This document shows, piece by piece, positions 2,148-39,532 of a stretch of DNA of 64,000 nt. The DNA comes from Candidatus Kerfeldbacteria bacterium (lineage in GTDB: Bacteria > Patescibacteriota > Patescibacteriia > UBA10025 > JAHIVO01): the NCBI GenBank assembly GCA_047946875.1, contig CP181398.1, forward strand, positions 649,041 through 713,040. Direction: 5' to 3'. Within the stretch, counting starts at the first letter, position 1. Each line of letters starts with the position of its first letter. Below the pieces are notes generated by a model. It worked only from the letters and a program-made list of their open reading frames with translations. It had not been told where the DNA came from and searched no databases. A program made the position numbers and the translations under genes.

Positions 2148-2441
2148 TTACATTAAAATCCTTATCTTTTTTACTTTAATAGCCCCAATTTTCTTATTTA
2201 ATGTTTCTAACAATTCATATTCATTCATCTTTACTTCCTGACCAGTTGCCGAACTAAGAACCGCTACTGTCATTGTTCCATCTTTTACATATTTTGCTTG
2301 AATCCTATCTTTAAATTTATCCCCCATTATCTTCACTACCAACTTATCAAATTCATCACAAATCATAGCGGCGCCAACTTCTTTGGCAGCACCAGTTCTA
2401 CCTAAGCTCTCTCCTAATAAATTTTTTATCGATATTACCAT
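2148..2441 (-). CDS. DUF721/DciA-like small protein
   Basis: 97 aa; the pattern IKNLLGESLG...GAAMICDEF...KDGTMTVAVLSSATGQEV matches the DUF721 family as I recall it. Confidence 0.5.
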   Translation of the reverse strand: MVISIKNLLGESLGRTGAAKEVGAAMICDEFDKLVVKIMGDKFKDRIQAKYVKDGTMTVAVLSSATGQEVKMNEYELLETLNKKIGAIKVKKIRILM

Positions 2442-2446
2442 TTTGA

Positions 2447-2851
2447 TTATACTTTCCTAACTCTAGTTATCTGATTTAATATATTTTCAATTACTCCTTC
2501 TATATTATTATAAATATCATAATTAGTAAAACGTAAAAAATCTATACTAAACGTCTCAATAAACTCTTGGCGCTTTTTATCATTGATCTTAGCTTCTTTG
2601 GTTAAAAAATGCGTTGGACCATCCACCTCTATAACCAACCTTAACTCTGGACAATAGAAATCTACCACATATCCACCGATGCTGTACTGACGACGAAACT
2701 TAAAATCTCCGATCTGACGACCTTTCAAATACCGCCAAAGAATCAATTCAGCCTTCGGCGACTCACGTCGTAGTTTTTGACGACGCTCTTTCATACTCGT
2801 GCAATTATATAATCTTGTCATATGATGGATTGACCTCCCCTTAATAGACAT
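2447..2851 (-). CDS. DUF559 endonuclease-domain protein (Vsr-like fold)
   Basis: 134 aa; ELILWRYLKGRQ...FRRQ...GGYVVDFYCPELRLVIEVDG..H is the classic DUF559 signature. Confidence 0.8.
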   Translation of the reverse strand: MSIKGRSIHHMTRLYNCTSMKERRQKLRRESPKAELILWRYLKGRQIGDFKFRRQYSIGGYVVDFYCPELRLVIEVDGPTHFLTKEAKINDKKRQEFIETFSIDFLRFTNYDIYNNIEGVIENILNQITRVRKV

Positions 2852-3092
2852 TTAATTATTATTCTCAACCCCTCCTTCATCCCCTCCTCAATTGAGGAGG
2901 GGAAAGGCATACACTATAAATATAACCATTTCATGGTGAGAGGTGGTGGAGTAAACAAAAAATCCCCATGGTTATTGGGGAAAGTATTATATATGTAAAT
3001 TACGATATTTTTATCTTCTAGTCAATTAATTACGATTTAATGTTTCTGGCATACATAATTTTACCTTTTATTAACAATAAACGAAAAAACAC

Positions 3093-3159: not shown

Positions 3160-3531
3160 TTGAACAGTGAACAATTAGTCCAACAAGTGCGTGATGGAGA
3201 TATTATGGAGTATACTCTGACCGGCGACATCGACGACCTTGTCGTGGACATGCTCGATTTCGCCATTACTTCCGAAAAAAACGAACATGAACTGCACCTG
3301 GTCAACCTGACAGCAGTCACCTCAATTACGGACTATGCAATCGGAAAATTCATCCTGATCCGAGAGATCCTGGATATTAAAAAGGAAAAGCTGGCTCTGA
3401 CACTGGGTGGCAGAGAACACCCACTTCTCGAGCGGCTAGCCTGTGCGTTTATGAACAAACAGGTTTATATCTACCCTTCAGCGGAAAAAGCGGTTGAAGT
3501 ACTACACCGCCCTCAGACTACTTCGACCTAA
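3160..3531 (+). CDS. STAS-domain-like protein (anti-sigma-factor-antagonist fold)
   Basis: 123 aa; TTG start 7 nt after an AGGAGG ribosome-binding site; GC-rich relative to surroundings; LTGDIDDLVVDML...LVNLTAV.SI.DYAIGKF resembles a STAS domain. Confidence 0.4.
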   Translation: MNSEQLVQQVRDGDIMEYTLTGDIDDLVVDMLDFAITSEKNEHELHLVNLTAVTSITDYAIGKFILIREILDIKKEKLALTLGGREHPLLERLACAFMNKQVYIYPSAEKAVEVLHRPQTTST

Positions 3532-3590: not shown

Positions 3591-3679
3591 TTATGTCTTG
3601 TAATCCGTCTACTTTTTTATCATCTTCTGGATTGTGACTTAATGTTTCTGACATATATTTGTATTTTTGATATAATTCT

Positions 3680-4771
3680 TCATTTATCATACCTCCCTAT
3701 CTCCTCCTTTATTGTCCTAGCAACTACTTCCGGATCCTGCTTTTCATCGAAAAATATATTATGATAATGCGTATTATCTATCCCCAGCACCCTCAACACT
3801 TCCCATACTTTATTCTGTTGATCTTTGAATGCCTCAGGCAATACTACCAAATGAGTAATATCTAGATTCTCTTTCTTAATATAAGATGACGCATCAAGTG
3901 CCTCACATAACCACCGTCCATTAGTCGTACGCAGAGGTATCTCACCATAGGCAGGGTTCTCAGCATCGGGGTTAGTAAAATATATAGCCTCCCCTTTCCG
4001 CCTGATATTCCCATTAGCCTCCAACTGTTTAACTAGTTCCTCTGCCTCAATTATCTTCTCACTTTCTGAGATCAATAAATATTCCTTACCCTCGGTGGCA
4101 TCTTCTGACATTACCCCTTTTTCTTTTAACAAACCTTCTACACTTCTTTTAAAATTTTCTTTTACCCCATCTGACAGTTGCAACTGCGGAGCATCAAGTG
4201 GATCTCCTTTTTCAGTAGTTATTGCATGACCCTGTTCATCTGTCTGTATTTTTTTTGGCTTACCTAACAGATCCGTAGCATCAGGCATATCCGTATTATA
4301 TTCATCATAAAGAGATATCAACCTAGCCTTGGGGAATGATTCCGTTAATGTCTTCGCCACCTCTATCCCCACCTTATCCGTATCAGTCAGCTTATCCGAC
4401 CATATCTTACCACTAGATAGATCATAATCCGCCAAGTAAGGGCTAAATGACTCAAACTCCACCTTACGACCACTTCGATAATCTTCCAGGATTTCATTCA
4501 TTTGGCATAAGGAAAAATCCACGCCTTCACGCATGGCTTCTTTTGATGCTTCCTCTATTTCTTCATCCAATTTATATTTCAATTGCTTATCTCCAGCAGC
4601 TATACTAAAAGCACTTTTGAATTTATCTCTAATACCATTCAATATCTTTCTGATTTGCGAAGGACTTTTCTCCTCTTCTGTTTCAACTTCTGGAGAATCA
4701 TAAACCACCTCGGTCCTTTCAACCTCGTCGTTCCGCTCCACCTCTGGATTGTGCTTTAATGTTTCTGACAT
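3680..4771 (-). CDS. acidic hypothetical protein; probable third gene of the ATPase/DUF4276 operon
   Basis: 363 aa, Glu/Asp-rich N-terminus, no recognisable domain; starts 27 nt downstream of the DUF4276 stop on the same strand. Confidence 0.5.
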   Translation of the reverse strand: MSETLKHNPEVERNDEVERTEVVYDSPEVETEEEKSPSQIRKILNGIRDKFKSAFSIAAGDKQLKYKLDEEIEEASKEAMREGVDFSLCQMNEILEDYRSGRKVEFESFSPYLADYDLSSGKIWSDKLTDTDKVGIEVAKTLTESFPKARLISLYDEYNTDMPDATDLLGKPKKIQTDEQGHAITTEKGDPLDAPQLQLSDGVKENFKRSVEGLLKEKGVMSEDATEGKEYLLISESEKIIEAEELVKQLEANGNIRRKGEAIYFTNPDAENPAYGEIPLRTTNGRWLCEALDASSYIKKENLDITHLVVLPEAFKDQQNKVWEVLRVLGIDNTHYHNIFFDEKQDPEVVARTIKEEIGRYDK

Positions 4772-4797
4772 TTAATATTATAGTTATATTTCAATAT

Positions 4798-5490
4798 TTA
4801 TCTACTGACAAAAGAATCAACCTCTGTAATAAATTCATTTAAGCTATTAATCTTAGATTTAACAGATAAATACAATTCGCTATAATCTAATGCTTTGATA
4901 GTTCTTTTTATGCTATTTTCAGTCTTTGTATATCTTAATCCCACAATTTTATATATATCGTCTAAATCTATTGATGGATGACTTCTACTCTCTGGATTAT
5001 CTCTAAAAGGATCAAAATCAACACCAGTGCTTACAAGTGATTCTGTAAGAGAAGGATGAATTTTTCTATAATGACTTACCTCACCTAAAAACCATGCTTC
5101 CACTTCCATAATCGCTAGTACAATCTTTATTGGGATATATTTAGTTGGAACACGGGTAGATAGACCCATTTTTAAAGCTGGAATTTCAGCATGCGTAAAT
5201 GGATATACATCTCTTAACCCTATGATCCTATCGTAACCGCTTTCTGATAACTTTTCACAATGCTCAATAATGTCCGATTTAACACTTGAGTCTCCGCCAC
5301 AATCACGTATTAAAACATAATATTCCTTTTTAGGATTAATTGATTTTGCTTCAATTATTGTTAATAAATTTTTTTCAAATCTTTTTGTTTTAGATACTGT
5401 AATATTATTTTGACCAATAACTTCAATTAATAGCCTTTCTGAAAAAATTTGTTCTGTTTTACCCTCGACAAATATTGCTAACTTTTTCAT
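4798..5490 (-). CDS. DUF4276 family protein (Toprim-like)
   Basis: 230 aa; N-terminal KLAIFVEGKTEQIF plus IRDCGGD look like a Toprim Glu and DxD motif; 4-nt overlap with the upstream ATPase gene. Confidence 0.65.
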   Translation of the reverse strand: MKKLAIFVEGKTEQIFSERLLIEVIGQNNITVSKTKRFEKNLLTIIEAKSINPKKEYYVLIRDCGGDSSVKSDIIEHCEKLSESGYDRIIGLRDVYPFTHAEIPALKMGLSTRVPTKYIPIKIVLAIMEVEAWFLGEVSHYRKIHPSLTESLVSTGVDFDPFRDNPESRSHPSIDLDDIYKIVGLRYTKTENSIKRTIKALDYSELYLSVKSKINSLNEFITEVDSFVSR

Positions 5491-6629
5491 TTAATATTTT
5501 CATCTCTTAAATAAAAATTATTTGTAAAGAAATCAAAATTATTAAGTCCAGTATATTTAAATTCATCAAATAGCTTCTTAGAATTTTCATAATTAAGGAT
5601 ACTACATTTTCCTCCTACTCTATTAATAATAAGCCATAACTCAATTGGGATATCATTCATGACAAAGCGATCATTCGTAGTCATTATTAATTGAGCGGGT
5701 GAATCATCAATTTTTTTCATTAACAATTTAATAAGTGCTTGAGATCTCTCAAAATCTAATCCTTCACCAATATCATCAATGAGTATACAGGTAGGTGTTG
5801 ACTCTAAATGTGAGTAATTCAATTGAATAACCAATGACAAAGCTCTAAACATACCTTGAGAGATATCTTGTTGGTTTGTTATTCCTTCAAGATCTTTTTC
5901 CTTAACTGATAAACCCTTTGCCTCTATCTTCATCCCAAAATCAGATATAATTGGTATAGTTTCTAAAAAAATATTTTCTAATTGATAATTAATTTTCTTC
6001 ATATCCTTTCTGATTACATTTACAAATTTCTGACCATATTTTTTTTGACCTGCATCAAAAATATCAATTAGTCTGTTTATATTTTTTAAATTAATTTTTT
6101 CAATATTTTTATTTTGATTAATTCCTGAAACCTGATCTTTCCCCATTTGACTTCCAAATGGATAATAAAGAGTTTGCTTTCCCCATTTATATAGGTCATT
6201 AAAAAATGGGTGCTGAATTAAATCTTTCCTTACTACACAGGCTAATTCATTATTCGATACTTGAAAATCAATACTTTTTTTAAGTTGTACTGCAAATATT
6301 TTTCCTTTACCATTACCCTTTCTTTCTAGAAATTTCTTTTTATCTACTATGAATTCTTCTTTTAGTACTTTAGAATTTTTATATTTCAAAATATATTTAA
6401 CAATTTGTTTTCCATTCTCAAATTCAATTTCATAATTTCCTGAATTATATATTAATTTTTGATCACCAGAAACTAATGCAGCGAATGCATTTATAATATT
6501 TAATATTCTTGTTTTACCTGACGCATTTTTTCCAACAAGTAAATTTTTCTTACCAACGTTAAACTTTTTAACATGCCATGCTTTGGGCGTATTTTCAAAT
6601 TGACTATACTTGATTGATTTTAATATCAT
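5487..6629 (-). CDS. AAA_21/AAA_15-type ABC-like ATPase (OLD/PARIS AriA-like)
   Basis: 380 aa; Walker A GKNASGKT; C-terminal ILIDDIGEGLD Walker B/D-loop and TTND H-loop. Confidence 0.7.
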   Translation of the reverse strand: MILKSIKYSQFENTPKAWHVKKFNVGKKNLLVGKNASGKTRILNIINAFAALVSGDQKLIYNSGNYEIEFENGKQIVKYILKYKNSKVLKEEFIVDKKKFLERKGNGKGKIFAVQLKKSIDFQVSNNELACVVRKDLIQHPFFNDLYKWGKQTLYYPFGSQMGKDQVSGINQNKNIEKINLKNINRLIDIFDAGQKKYGQKFVNVIRKDMKKINYQLENIFLETIPIISDFGMKIEAKGLSVKEKDLEGITNQQDISQGMFRALSLVIQLNYSHLESTPTCILIDDIGEGLDFERSQALIKLLMKKIDDSPAQLIMTTNDRFVMNDIPIELWLIINRVGGKCSILNYENSKKLFDEFKYTGLNNFDFFTNNFYLRDENIK

Positions 6630-6674
6630 ATATTTATTTATTTACTAATCTAAATCTAATCCATTTTTAACTTT

Positions 6675-6700
6675 AAATCAACCCTGCCATTTACCCTCAC
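6675..6700. repeat. partial copy (A1) of the ~75-bp island repeat
   Basis: AAATCAACCCTGCCATTTACCCTCAC matches 25 of 26 nt with the start of repeats A2 and A3; lies about 45 nt upstream of the ATPase start. Confidence 0.7.
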
Positions 6701-6722
6701 AAATATCCCAGAATATCTTATT

Positions 6723-7829
6723 TTATTTTCCTGACTTAGTTCGATTATCCTGTTTACACAACATTTGACAATTTTTTGCTGTTGTTTTACCTCCTTCATG
6801 CCATGGATCAATGTGATCAGCTTCCATTTCAGAAATATCCCACTTCTGTTTCTTTTTGTTCTGCTTTTTGCAATCAGGACATACACCCTTTTGCCTCTCA
6901 TACGCTTCTCGCTTCATTTTATCGGTGAACGCGCGAATAGAAAGGTGCTTCTCCTGCCCTGTGAGTACATAAGGATAGATACCATATTTTTTTGTCACAT
7001 CCTCATCCTGCATCAATTTAGCAATTTCTGTTTCAAGTTTTTTTACACTTAATTTATTATCTTTGAATTGATTATATAGTTCTCCCCAATTCACGCTAAC
7101 CATTTCTTTACGATAATTTGTAAAAGTCTTTCGCACCCATTCAATCACATCTTGAAAATATCTCCACAACTCGTCAGCGTTTTTATCGTGTTGGTGTTTG
7201 GCCATGTAATCTTCTATCTTACCTTCGTTGATCCAGAAAAGTGCAGTTTCTAAATAATCTTGTCGTATTGGTGATCCACTTACCAAATGTCCTCCGTCAT
7301 TTGCTAAAAGATATGCTGCACAGTTTGATTTACTAAATTTCAATTTAGCATCACTTAACCATGGCCCCGTATAAACCGCATTGCGTAACTCTTGGTCGGT
7401 CAATTTTTCACCTGCAATATTAATAATCTTGAACCAATCAAGTCGCTCCCGATCTGTACCTTCGCACCAGTAAATCATAAGTTCATAATTCAAAATCTGA
7501 TCTTGTTCCTCATCTGTTAAATTATGAAAATACTTTTCATCTAGTGAAAAATCACCATTTACATATTGACCGATACTAATAGTACGCTGTTGACCATCGA
7601 GCATTTCGAAACCATCCTCATTCTTCAACCAATACATCACATTAAGTGGAAATTTTTGTTTGATGGATATTATAACTTCTTTACGTTGTTTGTCATTATA
7701 GACAAATTCGCGTTGATACTTAGGGCGAATATCGAGCTTGCCACCATATGCCACAACACCTTCTTCGGCGCTGTCTTTATAATCAGCGATTACTTCACGC
7801 ACAGAGATTCGATGTAGTTCAATTTTCAT
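6723..7829 (-). CDS. DUF262 (ParB-like DGQQR nuclease) with C-terminal HNH endonuclease domain
   Basis: 368 aa; DGQQR motif at about residue 80; C-terminus ADHIDPWHEGGKTTAKNCQMLCKQDNRTKS is an HNH motif with CxxC. Confidence 0.75.
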   Translation of the reverse strand: MKIELHRISVREVIADYKDSAEEGVVAYGGKLDIRPKYQREFVYNDKQRKEVIISIKQKFPLNVMYWLKNEDGFEMLDGQQRTISIGQYVNGDFSLDEKYFHNLTDEEQDQILNYELMIYWCEGTDRERLDWFKIINIAGEKLTDQELRNAVYTGPWLSDAKLKFSKSNCAAYLLANDGGHLVSGSPIRQDYLETALFWINEGKIEDYMAKHQHDKNADELWRYFQDVIEWVRKTFTNYRKEMVSVNWGELYNQFKDNKLSVKKLETEIAKLMQDEDVTKKYGIYPYVLTGQEKHLSIRAFTDKMKREAYERQKGVCPDCKKQNKKKQKWDISEMEADHIDPWHEGGKTTAKNCQMLCKQDNRTKSGK

Positions 7830-7830
7830 A

Positions 7831-8874
7831 CTATTTTTTTACTTTCTTATTTTTTATAATAATTCGTGCATAAGTAACATTAACAATACCATTTACAATC
7901 ATATATAAATCACCATCAACAGCACCTCTTTTTTGAATTTCCTTCCTATATTTTTTATGCTCTTCTTTGTATCGTTTAACTCCAATTTCTATTCCTGAAT
8001 TAGATATACCTAAACCAATAATCTCGAATTGTTTCGGATTATATTTATCGAGAAAAGTGATTGGCACACCCATATCACCGCCATAGTCATAAGGGATATC
8101 AGTGTATTTATTTACATTAATTGCGTTATAGTTTTCATATTTAGGATATTCCTCAGATTTATATTTTTTATAAAGTGTAATATTCTCTTTATGTTTATCA
8201 ACTTCTAAGTTAGTGAACCAACATGAAGTTGATACACGAGCAATTTTATTACCACTCTCATCAATATGATGAAACTTTTCCCAATCTTCTGGTACAATAA
8301 AAAACATACCAACATTAAAATTAGTGTAGCCAGTTCGAATTCTATCCTCCTTAAATAGTTTGAAAATTTCCTTATAAGTCATTGAATTAGTATTGCCAAT
8401 AATCAAAAACTTTTTATCATATTCTCTCAGCTGTGCAACATACTCGCGAAACAAAGAAAAGGGCGGATTAGTTACGACAATATCAGCCTCTTTGAGTAGA
8501 TCTATACACTCATCGCTACGAAAATCACCAGTGCCAATCATCTCGGTTATGAATTCTTCTGGATCAGGAATACGGTTGCCATTTTTATCACCAGTATATT
8601 CCAATTTATAAGGTTGTTCTTGGGTAAATAAGCTTGCTTCTTTGTAATGTGTAGCAATCAATTTTTTCAATCCTAAATGTTCAAAATTCATGCTGAAATA
8701 CTTGACGAAATTACTTTCTTTCGGATCATCGCAGTTACAAAAAACTACTTTGCCACGAAATTGATCTTTATAATGTTTTAGCTCTTTTTCAATATCAGAG
8801 AGTTGAGTGTAAAATTCGTCTTTCTTTTCTTTGCTTGCTTTGTGCAAATTTTTATTTGAAGATTTTTTTTTCAT
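7831..8874 (-). CDS. EcoRI-family N6-adenine DNA methyltransferase
   Basis: 347 aa; N-terminal KNLHKASKEKKDEFYTQLSDIEKEL...VVFCNCDDP and DIVVTNPPFSLFREY closely parallel M.EcoRI as I recall it. Confidence 0.75.
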   Translation of the reverse strand: MKKKSSNKNLHKASKEKKDEFYTQLSDIEKELKHYKDQFRGKVVFCNCDDPKESNFVKYFSMNFEHLGLKKLIATHYKEASLFTQEQPYKLEYTGDKNGNRIPDPEEFITEMIGTGDFRSDECIDLLKEADIVVTNPPFSLFREYVAQLREYDKKFLIIGNTNSMTYKEIFKLFKEDRIRTGYTNFNVGMFFIVPEDWEKFHHIDESGNKIARVSTSCWFTNLEVDKHKENITLYKKYKSEEYPKYENYNAINVNKYTDIPYDYGGDMGVPITFLDKYNPKQFEIIGLGISNSGIEIGVKRYKEEHKKYRKEIQKRGAVDGDLYMIVNGIVNVTYARIIIKNKKVKK

Positions 8875-8900
8875 AAATTAATATTCCAACTTTTTTATTT

Positions 8901-8980
8901 AAAATCAACCCTGCCATTTATCCTCACCCCCCACACACCAATTTCACCTATAAACTATGGGGTAACCTTGTTTTTAATCC
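8901..8980. repeat. island repeat copy A2 (~80 bp)
   Basis: Near-identical to A3 (9186-9260) over about 70 bp; sits about 20 nt upstream of the methyltransferase start. Confidence 0.8.
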
Positions 8981-9064
8981 ATAATACACTTTTGAAAATA
9001 ACTTTAAGTTTTTCTCTCTTTTTCGAGCATCTTTTTCGGAAGAATAAGCTTCATAATAATATAT

Positions 9065-9169
9065 TTATGGTGAAAATAAAATTACAGCCATAACCACTAC
9101 AAAAATAATTACAAATAATACTATTCTTTTACCTGTACCACCAATCCAAAATTTATTATATTTTTCCAT
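9065..9169 (-). CDS. 34-aa single-TM peptide (MEKYNKFWIGGTGKRIVLFVIIFVVVMAVILFSP)
   Basis: Hand-translated; a repeat copy (A3) lies immediately upstream, as for the neighbouring genes; below the ORF-track length cutoff. Confidence 0.3.
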   Translation of the reverse strand: MEKYNKFWIGGTGKRIVLFVIIFVVVMAVILFSP

Positions 9170-9185
9170 ATTAGATAAATTTTAA

Positions 9186-9260
9186 TTACCCCTGCCATTT
9201 ATCCTCACCCCCACATACCAATTTCACCTATAAACTATAAGGTAACCTTGTTTTTAAACA
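9186..9260. repeat. island repeat copy A3 (~75 bp)
   Basis: CCCCTGCCATTTATCCTCACCCCCACA(C/T)ACCAATTTCACCTATAAACTAT..GGTAACCTTGTTTTTAA shared with A2; overlaps the 3' end of the RhuM ORF. Confidence 0.8.
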
Positions 9261-9680
9261 CCAATTCTCTAAACACCTTTTTAAATGAAAACTTTTATTA
9301 ATAATGTAGCCATCAATCATATGCTGTTTTAATACCTTTGTCGCCCAAATACGAAATTGCGTAGCGTGTTTAGAATTAACGCGATAACCTACAGAAATAA
9401 TTGCATCAAGATTATATAAATTAACATCACGCTCTATATATCGTTTTCCTTCTTTTTGAACTATCCGGAAATTCCGGATAGTTGCTTTATCTGTTAATTC
9501 ACCTGTTCTATAAATATTTTTTAAATGCTCATTAATCGTACGTACATCTACATCGAAAACTTCAGCGATCTGCTTTTGAGATGCCCAAATAGTCTCTAGA
9601 TTAAAATCTCCACGAAATTCAATTGCTCCAGTTTTAGCCTGGTAAATAACAATATTTTTAATAGATTTATTTTTATTCAT
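9228..9680 (-). pseudogene. 3'-truncated RhuM-family (virulence/Fic-associated) gene
   Basis: 150 aa versus about 330 aa for the family; homology (IVIYQ..G.IEF...ETIWASQKQIAEVF...QFRIWATKVLKQHMIDGY) ends where repeat A3 begins; the last ~24 residues are read from sequence in and next to the repeat. Confidence 0.6.
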
Positions 9681-9744: not shown

Positions 9745-12700
9745 CTAACCTTCCCACTTGTCTTCGCAGATTTCTTTAAAATCACAGGTCTTACACCAGA
9801 AGCCTGGATTTGCCTTAAAATCACTCTTCCTTATTTCCAAGATCTTATCTACTAATTTATCTTTCAATTTATCAAGTTCAGAATCCTTAGCAGTAAATGA
9901 GATCGGTTGATTTGCATTAACATAAAGATAAGTTAACTTAGCTGGTTTTAGTTTAAGAATATCCTTAGCAGCTAATGCATAGATCATCAACTGTTCTTTC
10001 TCATCCACTGACAACTTACCATTTTTTGGAACTTTACCAGTTTTGTAATCTATAATTTCTACTCCAGCGGAGCTGGACCCCGGTTTGCGGGGATCATTTC
10101 CATTAACATCACCAATTGGGTCTACTCTATCTATGACCCCTTTGAATGTATGTTCACCTAGTTTCAAATGAAATGGTTGTTCTAAGAATAATGGTACTGG
10201 AAAATCACCAGCTAATGAATCGTAATACATCTTCAATGACTCTCGACCCTGTTCATAATATTCTTCTTTATGCTGAACTGACAAATACCAATCCTCTATC
10301 CACTCTTGCTCATACAGTCCCATTAGTTCATCAAAACCAATTTTGACTTGGCCTTTGGCTGATCGATCTTGTACCATTTTGAAAAACTTAAATAAGGTAT
10401 TGTGAATTGTCTTACCATAACTAAACATATGCTTACCTTCTACTGGTATACGTAATAGATGTGCGTATTTGAATTGCTTAGGACAATTTTTGAAAGCCCG
10501 AAGTTGAGTATAGCTTGATTTCTCTGGAATTACTTTTCGTAAGTAATCTAACTCTTTAATTTTCTCTTGTTTAACATTATCGGTAGCTTTGAGTCTTTCT
10601 GTCTTATCTACCTCCCCTGTCCCTTTCTTCACTTCGAAACCAGTCTCGATCAAAAATCTGGATGGTTTTTTCTTGCGAGAGCCACCGTAATCATCTGCGG
10701 AAGTAAAATATAATCCCTCCTTAGCTCTGGTCATCGCTACATAGAATAATCGTCTCTCCTCCTGCAAATGAATATCCCCTTCTGGGATAATTTCTTTTAC
10801 CAATTCATCAGGTAGTTCAATCGGCTCTTTTCTTTCTATGGTTGGGAATCTTTTATCAACCAAATTTACTATAAATACATTTTTGAATTCCAATCCCTTA
10901 GCGCCATGAATAGTCATGATCTTAACTGCATCAGGCCCTTCATCCCAAGTTTGATTCATCGATCCAGATTCCCCTGCATCCTGAGATTGCTCAAATTCAT
11001 AAAGAAAATTCTTAACTGACTTATCATCATTAACTGCTTCAAAATCCTCTATCTTCCTGAAGAACTGATTAAGATGAATTATGCGTTCCATATTTTCTGG
11101 ACTATCTTTTGCAGTGATCTCTTTGAAATATCCAGAATCTTTCATAAATCTTAGAGCTACTGATAGTACATTTTTATCTCTAGTTAGCTGGGTATGCTTC
11201 TCTATCATGCCTAAGATTTTCTCAATGACATGATGTCCGCTTGATGAAATGCCAGGAATCCCTCTAACTTGTCCCATTGCTTCAAATAATGACATACGCT
11301 TCATAGCTGCATAACGTGATATAGACATCAGATAATCAGTTGGCAATTTAAACTGCTTAAAATTGAGCACTCTCCACATAGCAGCGCTCTCATGATAGTT
11401 ATCCAACATTTTCATATAGGCTACGATATCCATAATCTCTGGTTGACCATACAAACCTTTGGATGCCAAAAACTGATGCGGTATGTCTAGACGTGATAAT
11501 GAATTTATAAACTCCGCAGCGTATGAATTTGCCCTGATCAGGATAGCAAAATCACTCCATAATAATTTTCCGGCAGAGCCGGATCCCGCTTTGCGGGGCT
11601 TATTTCCAGTTTTCAGTTCTAATATTTTCTTAGTAACTCCACTTGCTTCGTCTAAATACGAATTGAAATGTAGATGCCGAATAACACCATCTTTACCAAT
11701 AGCTGATTTTAGCTTCTTACTTATTTTATTCTTTAGTGGAGCGCCCTTGGGATCTATCTTCCCTTTGGTCAGCTGATACTCAAGACGATTTGGGTCATTC
11801 TGTTTAATAAATTTATATGACAAATCTAGGATATTTTGTTTGGTACGATAATTGTCAGTTAGCACAATCTCATCAGACTCAGGAAAATCTTTTTTAAATT
11901 CCAAAATATTACTAATAGCAGCACCACGAAATTTATAGACAGATTGGTCATCATCCCCTACTACTGTAAGATTATTTTTTGGAGCAGATAATAATTTGAT
12001 TAATTCATACTGTGCGTAATTAGTATCTTGAAACTCGTCTACCAATATGTATTTGAACTGTTCTTGATATTTCTTTAATATTTTTGGACGCGTCTTGAAT
12101 AGCTTAATGGTATAAAGTATCAGATCACCGAAGTCCATGGCACTATTTTCTAACAGCAACTGCTGATAAACCTTGTAAGCATTAGCTACTTCCTGAACTC
12201 TTTTGTCTTCTGAAATTTCTTCGTCAACATCATCCTGACTACTATCTGGCTTTAGCTTATTAGCATATTCAATATATTCATCAGGTAATATGTTCTCATC
12301 TTTGGCTCGAGAAAAATGCCTAACTAAGGCTTGAACAAACTTGGTTGGATTACCTAAAGGACGATAGTAATCAAGATCAAATTTATCAAAATTCTTTTGA
12401 ATTAATAGAACTTGGTCTGTAACACTCAATAATTTAAAGTCAGGCGGTAAGCCAATCTCCAAGGCATTATCTTTCAATATTCTTTCACAAAAAGCATGAA
12501 AGGTAGATACCCAAAGATCAACATATCCCATTGGTAATAATACATCTATCCTCTCTTCCATCTCAGCCGCTGCTTTCTCTGTAAAAGTCAGAGCTAATAG
12601 ATGGTCAGTGTTTATCTTCTTCTCTAATATTAACCAAGCTATTCTCTCTGTAATCACGGTTGTTTTGCCAGTACCCGCTCCTGCTACAATTAGCAAAGGA

Positions 12701-12759
12701 CCCTCACCAAATGTGACGGCTTTTTTCTGGGCAGGATTAAGATTATCAGTAATGTTCAT
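9745..12759 (-). CDS. UvrD/PcrA-type SF1 helicase fused to a C-terminal PD-(D/E)XK (Cas4/AddB-like) nuclease
   Basis: 1004 aa; Walker A GAGTGKTT, helicase motifs, C-terminal EIIDYKTGK and a Cys cluster (C..C......C). Confidence 0.8.
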   Translation of the reverse strand: MNITDNLNPAQKKAVTFGEGPLLIVAGAGTGKTTVITERIAWLILEKKINTDHLLALTFTEKAAAEMEERIDVLLPMGYVDLWVSTFHAFCERILKDNALEIGLPPDFKLLSVTDQVLLIQKNFDKFDLDYYRPLGNPTKFVQALVRHFSRAKDENILPDEYIEYANKLKPDSSQDDVDEEISEDKRVQEVANAYKVYQQLLLENSAMDFGDLILYTIKLFKTRPKILKKYQEQFKYILVDEFQDTNYAQYELIKLLSAPKNNLTVVGDDDQSVYKFRGAAISNILEFKKDFPESDEIVLTDNYRTKQNILDLSYKFIKQNDPNRLEYQLTKGKIDPKGAPLKNKISKKLKSAIGKDGVIRHLHFNSYLDEASGVTKKILELKTGNKPRKAGSGSAGKLLWSDFAILIRANSYAAEFINSLSRLDIPHQFLASKGLYGQPEIMDIVAYMKMLDNYHESAAMWRVLNFKQFKLPTDYLMSISRYAAMKRMSLFEAMGQVRGIPGISSSGHHVIEKILGMIEKHTQLTRDKNVLSVALRFMKDSGYFKEITAKDSPENMERIIHLNQFFRKIEDFEAVNDDKSVKNFLYEFEQSQDAGESGSMNQTWDEGPDAVKIMTIHGAKGLEFKNVFIVNLVDKRFPTIERKEPIELPDELVKEIIPEGDIHLQEERRLFYVAMTRAKEGLYFTSADDYGGSRKKKPSRFLIETGFEVKKGTGEVDKTERLKATDNVKQEKIKELDYLRKVIPEKSSYTQLRAFKNCPKQFKYAHLLRIPVEGKHMFSYGKTIHNTLFKFFKMVQDRSAKGQVKIGFDELMGLYEQEWIEDWYLSVQHKEEYYEQGRESLKMYYDSLAGDFPVPLFLEQPFHLKLGEHTFKGVIDRVDPIGDVNGNDPRKPGSSSAGVEIIDYKTGKVPKNGKLSVDEKEQLMIYALAAKDILKLKPAKLTYLYVNANQPISFTAKDSELDKLKDKLVDKILEIRKSDFKANPGFWCKTCDFKEICEDKWEG
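10064..10104. repeat. GC-rich palindromic in-frame mini-insert, copy 2
   Basis: CCAGC-GGA-GCTGG followed by CCCCG-GTTTG-CGGGG; encodes NGNDPRKPGSSSAG on the gene strand. Confidence 0.6.
11570..11609. repeat. GC-rich palindromic in-frame mini-insert, copy 1
   Basis: CCGGC-AGA-GCCGG followed by CCCGC-TTT-GCGGG; encodes TGNKPRKAGSGSAG; about 80% nt identity to the copy at 10064. Confidence 0.6.
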
Positions 12760-12871: not shown

Positions 12872-13060
12872 ATGATGATTGATCGGAAACGCTGGAAACA
12901 ACTAATAACCCTAAAAGAAGCAGGGTTGCCTCGACCCACATTTCAAATGTCAGAAAAAGACATTCTATCAGGTGATGATCGCTGGAAAAAATTTTGGGAC
13001 TACTGCATAACCAGCGGTGGACCAATAACCCTACCATTACCGGAGCCTATCAATTTTTGA
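12872..13060 (+). CDS. hypothetical small protein (~62 aa)
   Basis: ATG 8 nt after a GGAGG ribosome-binding site; GC-rich. Confidence 0.35.
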   Translation: MMIDRKRWKQLITLKEAGLPRPTFQMSEKDILSGDDRWKKFWDYCITSGGPITLPLPEPINF

Positions 13061-13089
13061 TAGGTTTTTTTTAATCAAATAATATGTTA

Positions 13090-13744: not shown

Positions 13745-14477
13745 AAAAATTGAATAAAAAAAAGACCGTCCCCACCATGTTGCATCAGTATGCTACTAGC
13801 GGGAACGGTTAATCTAATATTCTATAATAATTTTTTGATCTAAACGAATCCAGTGGGAAACGGCATTTGAATGCCTCCGAGGTTTACCCTTTTTTGCTGG
13901 GCCGGCTGTATCTAATGTGTCCCCTACGTATACATTAACGCGGGGTGTGGAAAACAGGACTACGGATCACTAGGTGAATCCGTAAGTGGCCATATACGAC
14001 TTGCGTGTCATAGTAGCTTCCCTTTCGGGGGTCTAACGTATGGGTTTGTGGGCCATGCCGCTCTTTTTTTGGCGGCTGTGTTTCTGTCTTCTTTTTTCCG
14101 GCTGAGGCCAGATAGAGTCTGGCGGCCAGGTGCCGGATTTTTGTTTCAGTCTTCTTTTTGTCGACGAATTGTCGTCGCGCAATGGCCAGCGGCGCTAGCT
14201 TTTTCTTTTTTTTTGAACTACTGCTAGGGTCGCAGGACTACTCGGCGGCGACATACGACGGCCGGGTCGGTGAAAGTTTAATTAAAATGCGCTTTGCGCA
14301 GGTGGTTGCCGAAATTCGGCGATCCTCGGTTGAACATTTTTTTTACTCCTTTCTACCCTGGATGGTCATGTGTTAGGTTAATTCTTTCAATGAACGCGTA
14401 CTACACATATACATGCTCTACCGGTGCCAATTTAGGCGTATTACTCACGGTTATGGCATGTTATTGCGTAACCAATA
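13745..14477 (-). ncRNA. candidate large structured ncRNA (~700 nt), class unknown
   Basis: About 50% GC in a ~30% GC genome; no ORF longer than 74 aa; many GC stems; minus-strand promoter TTGACA-N17-TAGTAT at 14478-14506; minus-strand terminator (9-bp stem plus T10) at 13753-13809. Confidence 0.3.
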
Positions 14478-16469: not shown

Positions 16470-17048
16470 ATGAAAACGAGAAAAATTCTCATTCTAACTT
16501 GTATGGCTTTGTTCGTCCTGATGGCGAATGGAGTCGTCCTGGCGGATAACGATTTTGAAGCGTCCTCCAAAGCTGTCAGTAGAATTCAGGCTCAGGACCA
16601 ATTGCAAACCGCTCAGAATTTCGAACGGTTATACAATGCGGTCCCGCCACCCGAAATGCAGGACTCCCAGGAACGACGCCAGCTGGTCAAACGGCTGAAT
16701 CGTTTCAATGTTTCTTCAAAGATCAGTTATATTTATCTGATCGACCGGGGAATCATCATGGCCTTCTTTACGGTCAAGGGAAAAGTCAGCTCAGTTAACT
16801 CCATGCTGACCTGCACAAAACAATTGGTTTACGATGGTTACGGTACCAGCTATGGCCGAGGTGGCGTTCACGCGGTTGCTAGTCCTGATCTCGACGGTAG
16901 CTATGGTACCAATGGTAATGGAGTATTCTTCTTCACCGATCTCGATACTTATATCGAATGGAACGGCAAGTACCTACTCTGTGATCAGTACATAAAGCTC
17001 AACCAACCGCCGGTCCTCGTTCTCGAAACTGAGGAAGGAGGCAAATAA
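16470..17048 (+). CDS. secreted hypothetical protein, tandem paralog A
   Basis: 192 aa, signal peptide; about 70% identical to the next gene. Confidence 0.6.
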   Translation: MKTRKILILTCMALFVLMANGVVLADNDFEASSKAVSRIQAQDQLQTAQNFERLYNAVPPPEMQDSQERRQLVKRLNRFNVSSKISYIYLIDRGIIMAFFTVKGKVSSVNSMLTCTKQLVYDGYGTSYGRGGVHAVASPDLDGSYGTNGNGVFFFTDLDTYIEWNGKYLLCDQYIKLNQPPVLVLETEEGGK

Positions 17049-17049
17049 G

Positions 17050-17631
17050 ATGAGATTGAACAAAAATCATATCATCTTCATCGCCATCGCTATGGCTATA
17101 CTCCTTCTGACTATCGGTTGTGGAAAGAATAAAGAATTTTCCAACTCATCCAAAGCCGTCAGTAACATTCAGGCCAAGGACCAGCTGAAAACCGCTGAAA
17201 ATTTCGAACGGTTATACAAAGCGGTCCCACCTCCGGAACTTCAGGATTCCCAAGAACGGCGTCAGCTGGTTAAACGGCTGAACCGATTCAATGTAGCCAA
17301 CAAGATCAGCTTTATCTACATCATTGACTTCGGGAAAATCATTGGATTTTTCACGGTCAAAGGTAAAGTCAGTTCAGTTAACTCTATGTTAACTTGTACT
17401 GAACAGCTGGTTGATGATGGATTTGGGACGGGTACTGGTGAAAATGGACGCGATAATGTCCATATTGTTCCCAGTCCTGATCTTGACGGTAGCTATGGTA
17501 CCAATGGTAAAGGAGTATTCTTCTTTACTGATCTCGATATCTATGTGGAATGGAATGGCACTTATATGCTTTCCGACCAGTACATCAAACTGGATCAACC
17601 ACCGGTCCTTATGCTCAAAGTGAAAGCCTAG
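17050..17631 (+). CDS. lipoprotein, tandem paralog B
   Basis: 193 aa; lipobox TIGC; shares the conserved KGKVSSVNSMLTCT motif with paralog A. Confidence 0.6.
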   Translation: MRLNKNHIIFIAIAMAILLLTIGCGKNKEFSNSSKAVSNIQAKDQLKTAENFERLYKAVPPPELQDSQERRQLVKRLNRFNVANKISFIYIIDFGKIIGFFTVKGKVSSVNSMLTCTEQLVDDGFGTGTGENGRDNVHIVPSPDLDGSYGTNGKGVFFFTDLDIYVEWNGTYMLSDQYIKLDQPPVLMLKVKA

Positions 17632-38863: not shown

Positions 38864-39532
38864 ATGAAACAAGAGACTAAGAAAAAACTCTACAAATTCT
38901 TAGCAATAGGAACCTTAATTCTTAGCCTTATAGCATTTATCATTTATGCTATTTATCGTTTTTTTAAATTTGTTACCTCTGGAACTCTTGAGGGTACTTT
39001 ATGGGGAATTGGTGTTATCATCGTTCCAATTCTCTTGTTTATCCTTATTTCAAGGATACGTGGTGAGTTATACCAACAAGAACGAGCTAAAATAAACCAA
39101 CAACGAAAAGAGAGAGAAGAAAAATTAGAGAGAGAAGAACGCAAGAGAAAAGCCGAAGCAGAAGCAAGAGAAAAATCAGAGAGAGAAGAACGCAAGAGAA
39201 AAGCCGAAGCAGAAGCAAAGGAGGCAAAGAGAAGAGGTATCTGCGTTTGCTGTGAAAAACCATCCAAAAATTTAGATTCTTTGGCATGGTGTAATAATTG
39301 TATTCTTGAGGTTGAACGTATAAAAAGAAAAAGAAAAGAGAAACCGCTACGTGATGCTGAAGAAGCTGGTAAGGATGTATGTTGGGAATGCGAATCTATT
39401 AACCCTAATAGATTCAGAACAGGTGAATGCATACAATGCTCAAATAGATGTCGCTGTGGAGCACCCTTCACTAGACACAACCCTAGCTTAGGCGGAGAAT
39501 GCGTTGACTGTTTTCTTGATTATGATGACTAA
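38864..39532 (+). CDS. membrane protein with charged coiled coil and a Cys-rich (6x CxxC) C-terminal domain
   Basis: 222 aa; two TM helices, ER/K-rich repeat, CVCCEKP..CNNC..CWEC..CIQC..CRC..CVDC. Confidence 0.6.
   Translation: MKQETKKKLYKFLAIGTLILSLIAFIIYAIYRFFKFVTSGTLEGTLWGIGVIIVPILLFILISRIRGELYQQERAKINQQRKEREEKLEREERKRKAEAEAREKSEREERKRKAEAEAKEAKRRGICVCCEKPSKNLDSLAWCNNCILEVERIKRKRKEKPLRDAEEAGKDVCWECESINPNRFRTGECIQCSNRCRCGAPFTRHNPSLGGECVDCFLDYDD
39127..39228 (+). repeat. perfect 51-nt in-frame tandem repeat x2 (EREERKRKAEAEAREKS)
   Basis: Identical 51-nt units at 39127 and 39178. Confidence 0.85.

What the first reader, a model, noticed from the sequence alone, without database searches (positions are those of the whole stretch)
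6675..9260. ~75-bp repeat present three times immediately upstream of defence-island gene starts; one copy truncates a RhuM gene
A core (GTGAGG(A/G)TAAATGGCAGGGTTGATTT on the gene strand) sits 20-45 nt upstream of the ATPase, the methyltransferase and a 34-aa TM peptide gene. Copies A2 (8901-8980) and A3 (9186-9260) are near-identical over about 70 bp; A1 (6675-6700) keeps only the core. A3 abuts the point where RhuM homology ends, so the last residues of that ORF are read from the repeat. This implies that recombination or insertion at the repeat truncated the gene. The pattern resembles cassette boundaries or a shared promoter-operator mediating modular exchange of defence genes.
Basis: seen in the sequence. 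Interest (0 to 1): 0.75.

Follow-up and report, generated by a model that had tools for sequence, protein, structure and literature searches.

The report
Duplicated addA gene-end insertion scars
The three repeats are leftover copies of the last codons of the neighbouring DNA-repair gene addA, left behind as blocks of defence genes were inserted one after another at this spot; this is a known kind of insertion scar, not a new regulatory or recombination element.

Summary
A 19-nt core occurs three times within 2.6 kb and nowhere else in the 64-kb window. A2 and A3 share about 75 bp. A3 starts exactly where RhuM homology stops (9261/9260).

The repeat is neither a promoter motif, an attC site nor an RNA. 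In the closest relative found (contig L039, AddA 92% identical) addA is followed almost directly by dciA, with no defence island. The core is the end of that addA gene: ...ATT TGT GAG GAT AAA TGG CAG GGA TAA (ICEDKWQG*). A1 is a decayed copy of the whole native junction, that is, the addA end plus the start of the next gene. A2 and A3 keep the last ~20 nt of addA plus a 55-nt arm of unknown origin.

The start of the native downstream gene is also triplicated. The addA-dciA interval is variable in six lineages. One of them (L053) carries a single SDR gene bracketed by a perfect 25-bp duplicate of its own addA end.

The repeats are therefore scars of serial insertions at a hotspot. A2 and A1 bracket a minimal restriction-modification (R-M) unit, as in "insertion with long target duplication". 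No integrase is present. The catalyst is unresolved: host recombination, or an integrase acting in trans.

The parts
9745..12759 (-). addA-like helicase-nuclease (UvrD + PD-(D/E)XK, 1004 aa). It is the conserved left anchor of the hotspot. Its last 33 nt (9745-9777) are unusually diverged from the closest relative.
   Evidence: Pfam. Synteny addA...dciA-pheS holds in six lineages. The last 33 nt have 13 mismatches to L039 against 6 in the preceding 87 nt, Fisher p=5.5e-5.
9228..9680 (-). Truncated RhuM-family ORF (150 aa). RhuM homology ends at 9261, and the last 10 codons plus the stop come from repeat A3.
   Evidence: Pfam profile positions 1-65 of 252 only. Alignment with homologues. tblastn end points at 9261. 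No further RhuM remnant in the window.
9180..9260 (-). Repeat A3. It consists of a 52-nt arm of unknown origin (9209-9260) plus the addA-terminus relic (core 9190-9208, with a stop-codon-like GTAA just after it).
   Evidence: 24/25 identical to L039 6596-6620, the addA end.
9065..9169 (-). 34-aa ORF with a hydrophobic stretch. It sits in the 281-bp segment bracketed by A3 and A2. Whether it is a real gene is unknown.
   Evidence: No family hit.
8884..8982 (-). Repeat A2. It consists of the same unknown arm (8928-8982) plus the addA-terminus relic and the following spacer (8884-8927). It is the upstream direct repeat of the R-M insertion.
6720..8879 (-). Minimal type II R-M unit: an EcoRI-family methylase (7831-8874) and a DUF262-HNH restriction enzyme (6723-7829).
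   Evidence: Pfam and PADLOC. Nucleotide homology (76-84%) to the same two-gene unit in 7 contigs from other contexts spans exactly 6720-8879.
6655..6714 (-). Repeat A1. It is a decayed copy of the whole native junction: the last ~38 nt of addA (ICEGKWQG*), the spacer, and a trace of the next gene's start. It is the downstream direct repeat of the R-M insertion.
   Evidence: Aligns to L039 6581-6639. blastn 80% over 54 nt, E=3.6e-6.
4798..6629 (-). AbiLi-like AAA ATPase (5487-6629) plus a DUF4276 protein (4798-5490). This block is inserted between relic A1 and the start of the native downstream gene.
   Evidence: Pfam and PADLOC. Absent from L039, L051, L053 and L054.
3680..4771 (-). Native gene downstream of addA (363 aa, function unknown). 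Its first ~10 codons belong to repeat family D4 (4743-4781).
   Evidence: 55% identical over 286 aa to the 299-aa protein that follows addA in L053. D4 repeats. The N-terminus matches the gene after addA in L039.
3595..3664 (-). D4b: a relic copy of the start of the native downstream gene (MSETLSHNPE...), truncated after ~26 codons.
   Evidence: 76% over 63 nt to L039 6622-6684..
3024..3062 (-). D4a: a third, weaker copy of the same gene start (MPETLNRN...).
   Evidence: 67% to the reference copy.
2148..2441 (-). dciA, the conserved right anchor of the variable interval.

Best explanation
A1, A2 and A3 are relic copies of the native junction at the end of addA, namely its last 20-38 nt, the stop codon and the short spacer. 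They were duplicated each time foreign DNA was inserted at the addA/downstream-gene junction, which is an insertion hotspot in this Kerfeldbacteria lineage. Shown: the sequence identity to addA, the empty site in relatives, and the nesting of the repeats around discrete inserts. Inferred: each event was an insertion with long target duplication carried out by host recombination. Incoming DNA from a related donor recombined homologously in addA (or, in mirror image, in the downstream gene). Its other end was joined illegitimately a few tens of nt inside the recipient's junction. This left a complete addA, then the insert, then the displaced old addA terminus. Serial events pushed older termini downstream, with A1 the oldest. 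RhuM is truncated because an incoming or rearranged fragment ended inside it. The repeats have no demonstrated function of their own. At most they carry along whatever translation or transcription signals the native junction held.
For: (1) The core equals the addA terminus of the closest relative: 19/19 for A2 and A3, 18/19 for A1, at the syntenic position. (2) L039 has addA-73aa-142aa-dciA with no island. L054 has addA followed directly by dciA. The interval holds 0.15 to 8.3 kb of unrelated content across six lineages. (3) A1 aligns across the whole native junction, on both sides of the stop codon. (4) The other half of the junction, the start of the next gene, is also triplicated (D4 copies). 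(5) A2 and A1 bracket an R-M unit whose homology to other genomes ends at the ORF limits. The same unit elsewhere has no flanking repeats. This meets the published criteria for R-M insertion with long target duplication (PMC2853133). (6) Repeat lengths and left limits vary: -38 for A1, -20 for A2/A3, -25 in L053, plus an 82-bp and a 39-bp pair. That is expected from illegitimate joins. (7) There is no integrase or transposase domain in any ORF scanned in the 64 kb, and none is listed among the precomputed Pfam families for the genes of the L053 locus. (8) The window's own addA end is abnormally diverged from position -33, as expected if the current terminus came in with donor DNA. (9) Homology-facilitated illegitimate recombination is documented in naturally competent bacteria (PMC3240628, abstract). 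Natural competence has been shown in cultivated Patescibacteria (PMC10633639 and PMC10187176).
Against: The 55-nt arm shared by A2 and A3 has no detectable origin: it is not addA and has no match elsewhere. The 19-nt core is perfectly kept in A2 and A3 while everything around it differs, which could indicate a defined crossover site. In L053 the duplicated 25 bp covers the same codons and is perfect, which looks like a classical att duplication. Only one close relative was available. The rest of the 1.31-Mb genome could not be searched. No microhomology at the joints could be assessed because the donors are unknown.
Confidence: 0.55

Rival explanations
1. The repeats are att sites from tandem accretion. 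Small integrative elements, now decayed to integrase-less, CIME-like remnants, integrated by site-specific recombination into an attB formed by the last ~20-25 nt of addA. Each integration into the previous attL/attR added one more core copy. The 55-nt arm shared by A2 and A3 is the P arm of one element family. The recombinase acts in trans or has been lost.
For: The direct repeats are identical to the 3' end of a conserved gene. The arms reassort exactly at the core: A3 is arm-core-x, A2 is arm-core-R and A1 is addA-core-R. An independent lineage (L053) has a perfect 25-bp duplicate of the same addA codons around a single gene. Accretion with decayed CIMEs is well described (PMC5704250).
Against: No integrase domain was found in any ORF scanned in the 64 kb, and none is listed for the L053 locus. 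The window's actual addA end is only 20/33 identical to the relics, so there is no attL with the core. The left limits of the addA-derived part differ (-38, -20, -25). A second repeat family on the other side of the junction (D4) is not explained by a single att core. The inserts are bare ORF units. The arm-core unit is absent from 2.9 M viral contigs. The 19-nt core gave only chance hits in the genome and metagenome collections; the arm itself could not be scanned there.
Confidence: 0.3
2. The repeat is a functional shared promoter/operator, or a dedicated cassette-exchange site, that co-regulates or mobilises defence genes.
For: All three copies lie 16-52 nt upstream of a start codon. A1 and A2 contain TTGATT followed 17 nt later by a weak -10-like hexamer (read from the sequence). 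The duplicated native junction may carry the signals that served the native downstream gene.
Against: The origin of the sequence is coding: the addA C-terminus. No site in the repeats reaches the promoter scan threshold. There is no dyad symmetry or fold. Distances to the ATGs differ about three-fold. One copy precedes only a doubtful 34-aa ORF. The R-M unit lacks this sequence in other genomes.
Confidence: 0.08
3. The repeat is a small mobile repeat (MITE), an integron attC-like site or a structured RNA gene.
For: The ~80-bp unit has sharp ends and weak terminal inverted similarity (12/17, read from the sequence).
Against: No Rfam family and no tRNA. Fold z-scores range from -0.85 to +1.15 on both strands for RNA and DNA. 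There are only two full copies, both at this locus. There is no IntI. The core is explained by addA.
Confidence: 0.03

Closest known systems
Insertion of restriction-modification units with long target duplication (Nobusato/Furuta/Kobayashi; PMC2853133)
   Same: A bare R+M unit of 2.16 kb with no mobility gene is bracketed by direct repeats longer than 30 bp. The repeat occurs once at the empty site of a related genome and overlaps the 3' end of the upstream gene. The paper's H. influenzae case is a 46-bp repeat overlapping 15 bp of a gene's 3' end.
   Different: Here the repeats are 89% rather than ~95-100% identical. The comparison genome is a related species (addA 84% nt), not a strain of the same species. 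The same junction has been used several times, also by non-R-M cargo (AbiL-like pair, RhuM fragment, 34-aa ORF; an SDR gene in L053), giving a nested series of relics.
Tandem accretion of integrative elements and CIMEs at the 3' end of a protein-coding gene (e.g. ICESt1/ICESt3 in fda; review PMC5704250)
   Same: There are multiple direct copies of the 3' end of a conserved target gene, separated by integrase-less cargo blocks. The newest insert lies next to the target gene.
   Different: No integrase or related intact element was found. The target gene's present end does not carry the core. The repeat limits are not constant. The opposite flank is duplicated too.
Homology-facilitated illegitimate recombination in naturally transformable bacteria (PMC3240628)
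   Same: Integration has one homologous anchor and one illegitimate joint. This explains the variable duplication lengths, the truncated cargo gene (RhuM) at a joint and the replaced addA terminus.
   Different: It has not been demonstrated here. The donors and the microhomologies are unknown. It is usually described with deletion rather than duplication of recipient DNA.
Defence-island hotspots between conserved core genes
   Same: The interval between two core genes (addA and dciA) is variable. It is empty in some relatives and filled with defence systems (R-M, AbiL-like, RhuM, DUF559) here.
   Different: This is only a descriptive category. The present case adds sequence-level scars that show the order and position of the insertions, in a Patescibacteria genome.

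Membership tests
R-M insertion with long target duplication (criteria of PMC2853133) | The insert contains both an R and an M gene | tested here: met
   EcoRI-family methylase plus a DUF262-HNH enzyme matching a full-length type II REase profile (E=7.5e-128).
R-M insertion with long target duplication (criteria of PMC2853133) | Insert shorter than 20 kb and without other mobile-element genes | tested here: met
   The unit is 2.16 kb, and its homology to other genomes stops at the ORF ends. No integrase or transposase was found.
R-M insertion with long target duplication (criteria of PMC2853133) | Flanking direct repeat longer than 30 bp | tested here: met
   37 nt, 33/37 identical, score 25 against a shuffle maximum of 16.
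R-M insertion with long target duplication (criteria of PMC2853133) | The repeat is present once at the uninterrupted site of a related genome | tested here: met
   Single copy at L039 6581-6640, at the addA end. Caveat: L039 is a related species, not the same species.
Site-specific att accretion / CIME | Direct repeats derived from the 3' end of the target gene | tested here: met
Site-specific att accretion / CIME | A tyrosine or serine recombinase in the island or in a related intact element | tested here: not met
   None in any ORF scanned in the 64 kb. None among the genes of L053, L039 or L040. Related intact elements elsewhere could not be searched.
Site-specific att accretion / CIME | Same core and same crossover limits in all copies, including attL at the target gene | tested here: inconclusive
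   The core is identical in A2 and A3 and 18/19 in A1. However, the left limits are -38, -20 and -25, and the window's own addA end is only 20/33 identical. L053 has a perfect 25/25 pair.
Site-specific att accretion / CIME | Excision to a circular form / empty attB in the population | not testable with these tools
   This needs read-level metagenome data.
Integron cassette array | attC sites: imperfect inverted repeats that fold as hairpins, with R''/R' boxes | tested here: not met
   DNA and RNA folds of both strands are no better than shuffles (z from -0.85 to +1.15).
Integron cassette array | IntI integrase and attI next to the array | tested here: not met
   No integrase domain was found.
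Shared promoter/operator | Recognisable -35/-10 elements or operator symmetry at a fixed distance from the starts | tested here: not met
   No site in the repeats passes the scan. The distances from core to ATG are 52, 34 and 20 nt.
Shared promoter/operator | Transcription initiation or regulator binding | not testable with these tools
   This needs RNA-seq, 5'-RACE or footprinting.
Known structured RNA / tRNA-derived att | Match to an Rfam family or a tRNA gene | tested here: not met
   0 Rfam matches and 0 tRNAs in the window.

The most novel reading that the evidence does not exclude
The end of addA is a dedicated capture site in Kerfeldbacteria and related Patescibacteria. A recombinase encoded elsewhere, or an unknown mechanism that makes long staggered target duplications, would load single genes and small defence cassettes there. 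The 55-nt arm plus core would be its recognition site. This would be an integron-like gene-capture platform without attC hairpins and without a local integrase.
Probability: 0.1. Interest if true: 0.65.

Novelty: new member of a known kind. Interest (0 to 1): 0.3.

Why it matters
The result turns an apparently mysterious "defence-cassette motif" into a readable history. The relics show where and in what order foreign blocks entered a hotspot between addA and dciA in an uncultivated Patescibacteria lineage, and they show that RhuM was cut at one of the joints. It is a clear example, in a CPR (candidate phyla radiation, Patescibacteria) genome, of defence-island growth by repeated insertion with target duplication and without any visible mobile-element machinery. 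The recurrence in a second lineage (L053) suggests a process that could be surveyed systematically. It does not reveal a new type of element or regulation.

Tried and rejected
1. Structured RNA, riboswitch or tRNA-derived att: no Rfam match and no tRNA. RNA and DNA folds of both strands are no better than shuffles.

2. Integron attC: no hairpin and no IntI.

3. Widespread element: the exact 19-mer core was scanned in GTDB representative genomes, JGI metagenome contigs and IMG/VR. It gave 8, 26 and 0 loci. All inspected hits were chance matches in unrelated, mostly GC-rich contigs or inside coding genes, such as queE in L016 or next to a tRNA in L013.

4. Two scans of viral contigs with the 55-nt arm found nothing.

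5. The hypothesis that the 55-nt arm is decayed addA coding sequence: local alignment scores are no better than shuffles (p from 0.28 to 0.99). MAFFT's apparent alignment is therefore not evidence.

6. The hypothesis that the repeat belongs to the R-M cassette: rejected, because homology with seven other contigs stops at the ORF ends and those copies have no flanking repeats.

7. Looking for the missing RhuM C-terminus elsewhere in the window: none found.

8. Contexts of the closest RhuM homologues (L048-L050) are not next to addA, so they say nothing about donors.

9. L040, L051 and L054 have no relic copies of their own addA ends.

10. Sigma-70 promoter scan: nothing in the repeats above threshold.
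Full report
**Observation.** All relevant genes lie on the minus strand. In gene order they are:
- an addA-like UvrD/PD-(D/E)XK helicase-nuclease (9745-12759)
- a 150-aa RhuM N-terminal fragment (9228-9680)
- a 34-aa ORF (9065-9169)
- an EcoRI-family methylase (7831-8874)
- a DUF262-HNH type II restriction enzyme (6723-7829)
- an AbiLi-like ATPase (5487-6629)
- a DUF4276 protein (4798-5490)
- a 363-aa protein of unknown function (3680-4771)
- a DUF559 nuclease (2447-2851)
- dciA (2148-2441)
- pheS (130-1140)

The core CCCTGCCATTTAYCCTCAC occurs at 6682-6700, 8909-8927 and 9190-9208 and nowhere else in the window. That is 3 matches against 0.02 expected. A2 and A3 share a further ~55 nt (94% over 50 nt). 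A1 and A2 share the core plus ~18 nt on the other side. RhuM homology ends at 9261 and the repeat begins at 9260. The arrangement is identical in two independent assemblies.

**What it is not.** There is no Rfam family and no tRNA in the window. Neither strand of any copy folds better than shuffled sequence, as RNA or as DNA. This excludes attC-like hairpins and structured RNAs. No promoter-like site within the repeats passes the scan. The exact core was scanned in GTDB representative genomes, metagenome contigs and viral contigs. It gave only chance hits in unrelated organisms. It is therefore not a widespread element.

**The key comparison.** The organism is a Candidatus Kerfeldbacteria bacterium. 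The closest AddA homologue (92% aa identity) lies on contig L039. Its gene order is addA, a 73-aa gene, a 142-aa gene, dciA, pheS, with no defence genes. blastn of the window against L039 matched all three repeats to one place, the very end of addA. That sequence reads ...GAG ATT TGT GAG GAT AAA TGG CAG GGA TAA, encoding EICEDKWQG*, and is followed 4 nt later by the next gene's ATG.

A2 and A3 match the L039 addA terminus 19/19 and A1 matches 18/19. A1 aligns with the whole junction (L039 6581-6639 = window 6655-6714). This covers ~38 nt of addA, the stop, the spacer and a trace of the next gene's start. In A2 and A3 the addA-derived part starts about 20 nt before the stop.

The 55-nt arm to their left is not detectably related to addA or to anything else I could search. 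Its origin is unexplained.

**The other half of the junction is repeated too.** Repeat family D4 lies at 4743-4781, 3626-3664 and 3024-3062. It is the start of the gene that follows addA: MPEILEHNPE in L039 and MSETLKHNPE here. The 363-aa protein is the orthologue of the 299-aa protein that follows addA in another lineage, L053 (55% identity over 286 aa). It is therefore the native downstream gene. D4b is a truncated relic of that gene's start.

**A hotspot.** The addA-dciA interval differs in every lineage examined:

| Lineage | Interval | Content |
|---|---|---|
| L054 | 0.15 kb | none |
| L051 | 0.57 kb | one 66-aa gene |
| L039 | 0.7 kb | 73-aa and 142-aa genes |
| L053 | 1.9 kb | SDR gene and 299-aa gene |
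| L040 | 8.3 kb | unrelated genes |
| window | 7.3 kb | defence genes |

L053 gives an independent, clean instance. A single short-chain dehydrogenase gene is bracketed by a perfect 25-bp direct repeat, TTGCGAAGATCGCTGGAATGGGTAA, at 13042-13066 and 13909-13933. This is that genome's own addA terminus and covers the same codons as the A core.

**Anatomy of the inserts.** The R-M unit shares 76-84% nucleotide identity with the same two-gene unit in seven contigs from other contexts. The homology spans exactly 6720-8879, from the M start to the R stop. Those other copies have no flanking repeats, whereas here the unit is flanked by the 37-nt A2/A1 pair. The repeat therefore belongs to the locus and not to the cassette.

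The 281-bp segment with the 34-aa ORF is bracketed by the 82-bp A3/A2 pair. The AbiL-like pair lies between A1 and the native gene start. The window's own addA end is abnormally diverged from L039 over exactly the last 33 nt: 13 mismatches against 6 in the preceding 87 nt, p=5.5e-5, with ~85% identity gene-wide. This suggests the present terminus arrived with foreign DNA, while the older L039-type termini were displaced downstream as relics.

No integrase or transposase domain was found in any ORF scanned in the 64 kb or in the related loci.

**Mechanism.** Three things are shown:
- The repeats are duplicated target sequence from the addA/next-gene junction.
- They bracket discrete inserts.
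- The site is empty in relatives.

The A2-[M,R]-A1 structure satisfies the published criteria for "insertion with long target duplication" of R-M units: R+M in the insert, under 20 kb with no mobility genes, a repeat over 30 bp, and a single copy at the empty site. That work includes a 46-bp example overlapping a gene's 3' end (PMC2853133).

The rest is inference. I favour host recombination, with a homologous anchor in addA (or in the downstream gene for the D4 series) and an illegitimate joint a few tens of nt inside the recipient junction. This is homology-facilitated illegitimate recombination (PMC3240628). It is plausible in Patescibacteria, where natural competence has been demonstrated (PMC10633639). 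It accounts for four features: the variable repeat lengths and left limits, the duplication on both flanks, the replaced addA terminus, and the truncation of RhuM at a joint.

The main rival is att-site accretion by a recombinase acting in trans, leaving CIME-like remnants (PMC5704250). It is supported by the perfectly kept core, by the reassortment of arms at the core, and by the perfect 25-bp pair over the same codons in L053. It is weakened by four points: no integrase was found, there is no core-bearing attL at the present addA end, the limits are not constant, and there is a second repeat family. I cannot exclude it.

**Comparison and verdict.** The motif, however, is a scar made of the neighbouring gene's end, which is a known phenomenon. 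It is a new and unusually legible example in a CPR (candidate phyla radiation, Patescibacteria) genome, not a new kind of element. The unexplained residue is the 55-nt arm and the recurrence over the same addA codons in two lineages. These keep a small probability alive for a dedicated capture mechanism.

Noticed in passing
window 3024-3062, 3626-3664, 4743-4781: There are three copies of a gene start (MSETLKHNPE-like) with its upstream bases. They correspond to the start of the gene that follows addA in relative L039. One heads the native 363-aa gene and two are truncated relics. They mirror the addA-end relics on the other side of the hotspot.
   Followed up: yes
window 9745-9777: The last 33 nt of the window's own addA are far more diverged from the closest relative than the rest of the gene (13/33 against 6/87 mismatches). 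The changes are mostly synonymous, as if this terminus had been replaced by a foreign allele.
   Followed up: partly
L053 13042-13066 and 13909-13933: In a different Patescibacteria lineage a single adh_short (SDR) gene sits just after addA. It is bracketed by a perfect 25-bp duplicate of the addA terminus. A 7-bp-stem hairpin (CCGTACT..AGTACGG) lies just after the first copy.
   Followed up: partly
proteins P0002, P0003, P0010 and others; loci L048-L050: Many Patescibacteria RhuM homologues on long contigs are also short (160-250 aa) and end in non-homologous tails. RhuM genes therefore seem to be truncated often in this phylum, not only here.
   Followed up: no
window 16470-17048 and 17050-17631: Two adjacent paralogous genes (192 and 193 aa, ~75% nucleotide identity) have no Pfam match. 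L039 appears to lack this block.
   Followed up: no
window 39118-39218: There is a near-perfect 51-bp tandem duplication (98%) inside a Glu/Lys/Arg-rich ORF (38864-39532) with no Pfam match.
   Followed up: no
window 9459-9483: A perfect 11-bp-stem palindrome, AACTATCCGGAAATTCCGGATAGTT, lies inside the RhuM fragment's coding region. It was flagged as terminator-like on the + strand.
   Followed up: no
window 2447-2851 and 3160-3531: A DUF559 (Vsr-like) nuclease gene and a 123-aa plus-strand ORF also lie in the variable addA-dciA interval and are absent from L039. The island therefore extends beyond the repeats to about 2450.
   Followed up: partly
proteins P0123, P0142, P0145, P0166, P0230: Several AddA orthologues in related Patescibacteria are ~1320-1385 aa and carry Hint/intein domains. 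The window's AddA does not.
   Followed up: no
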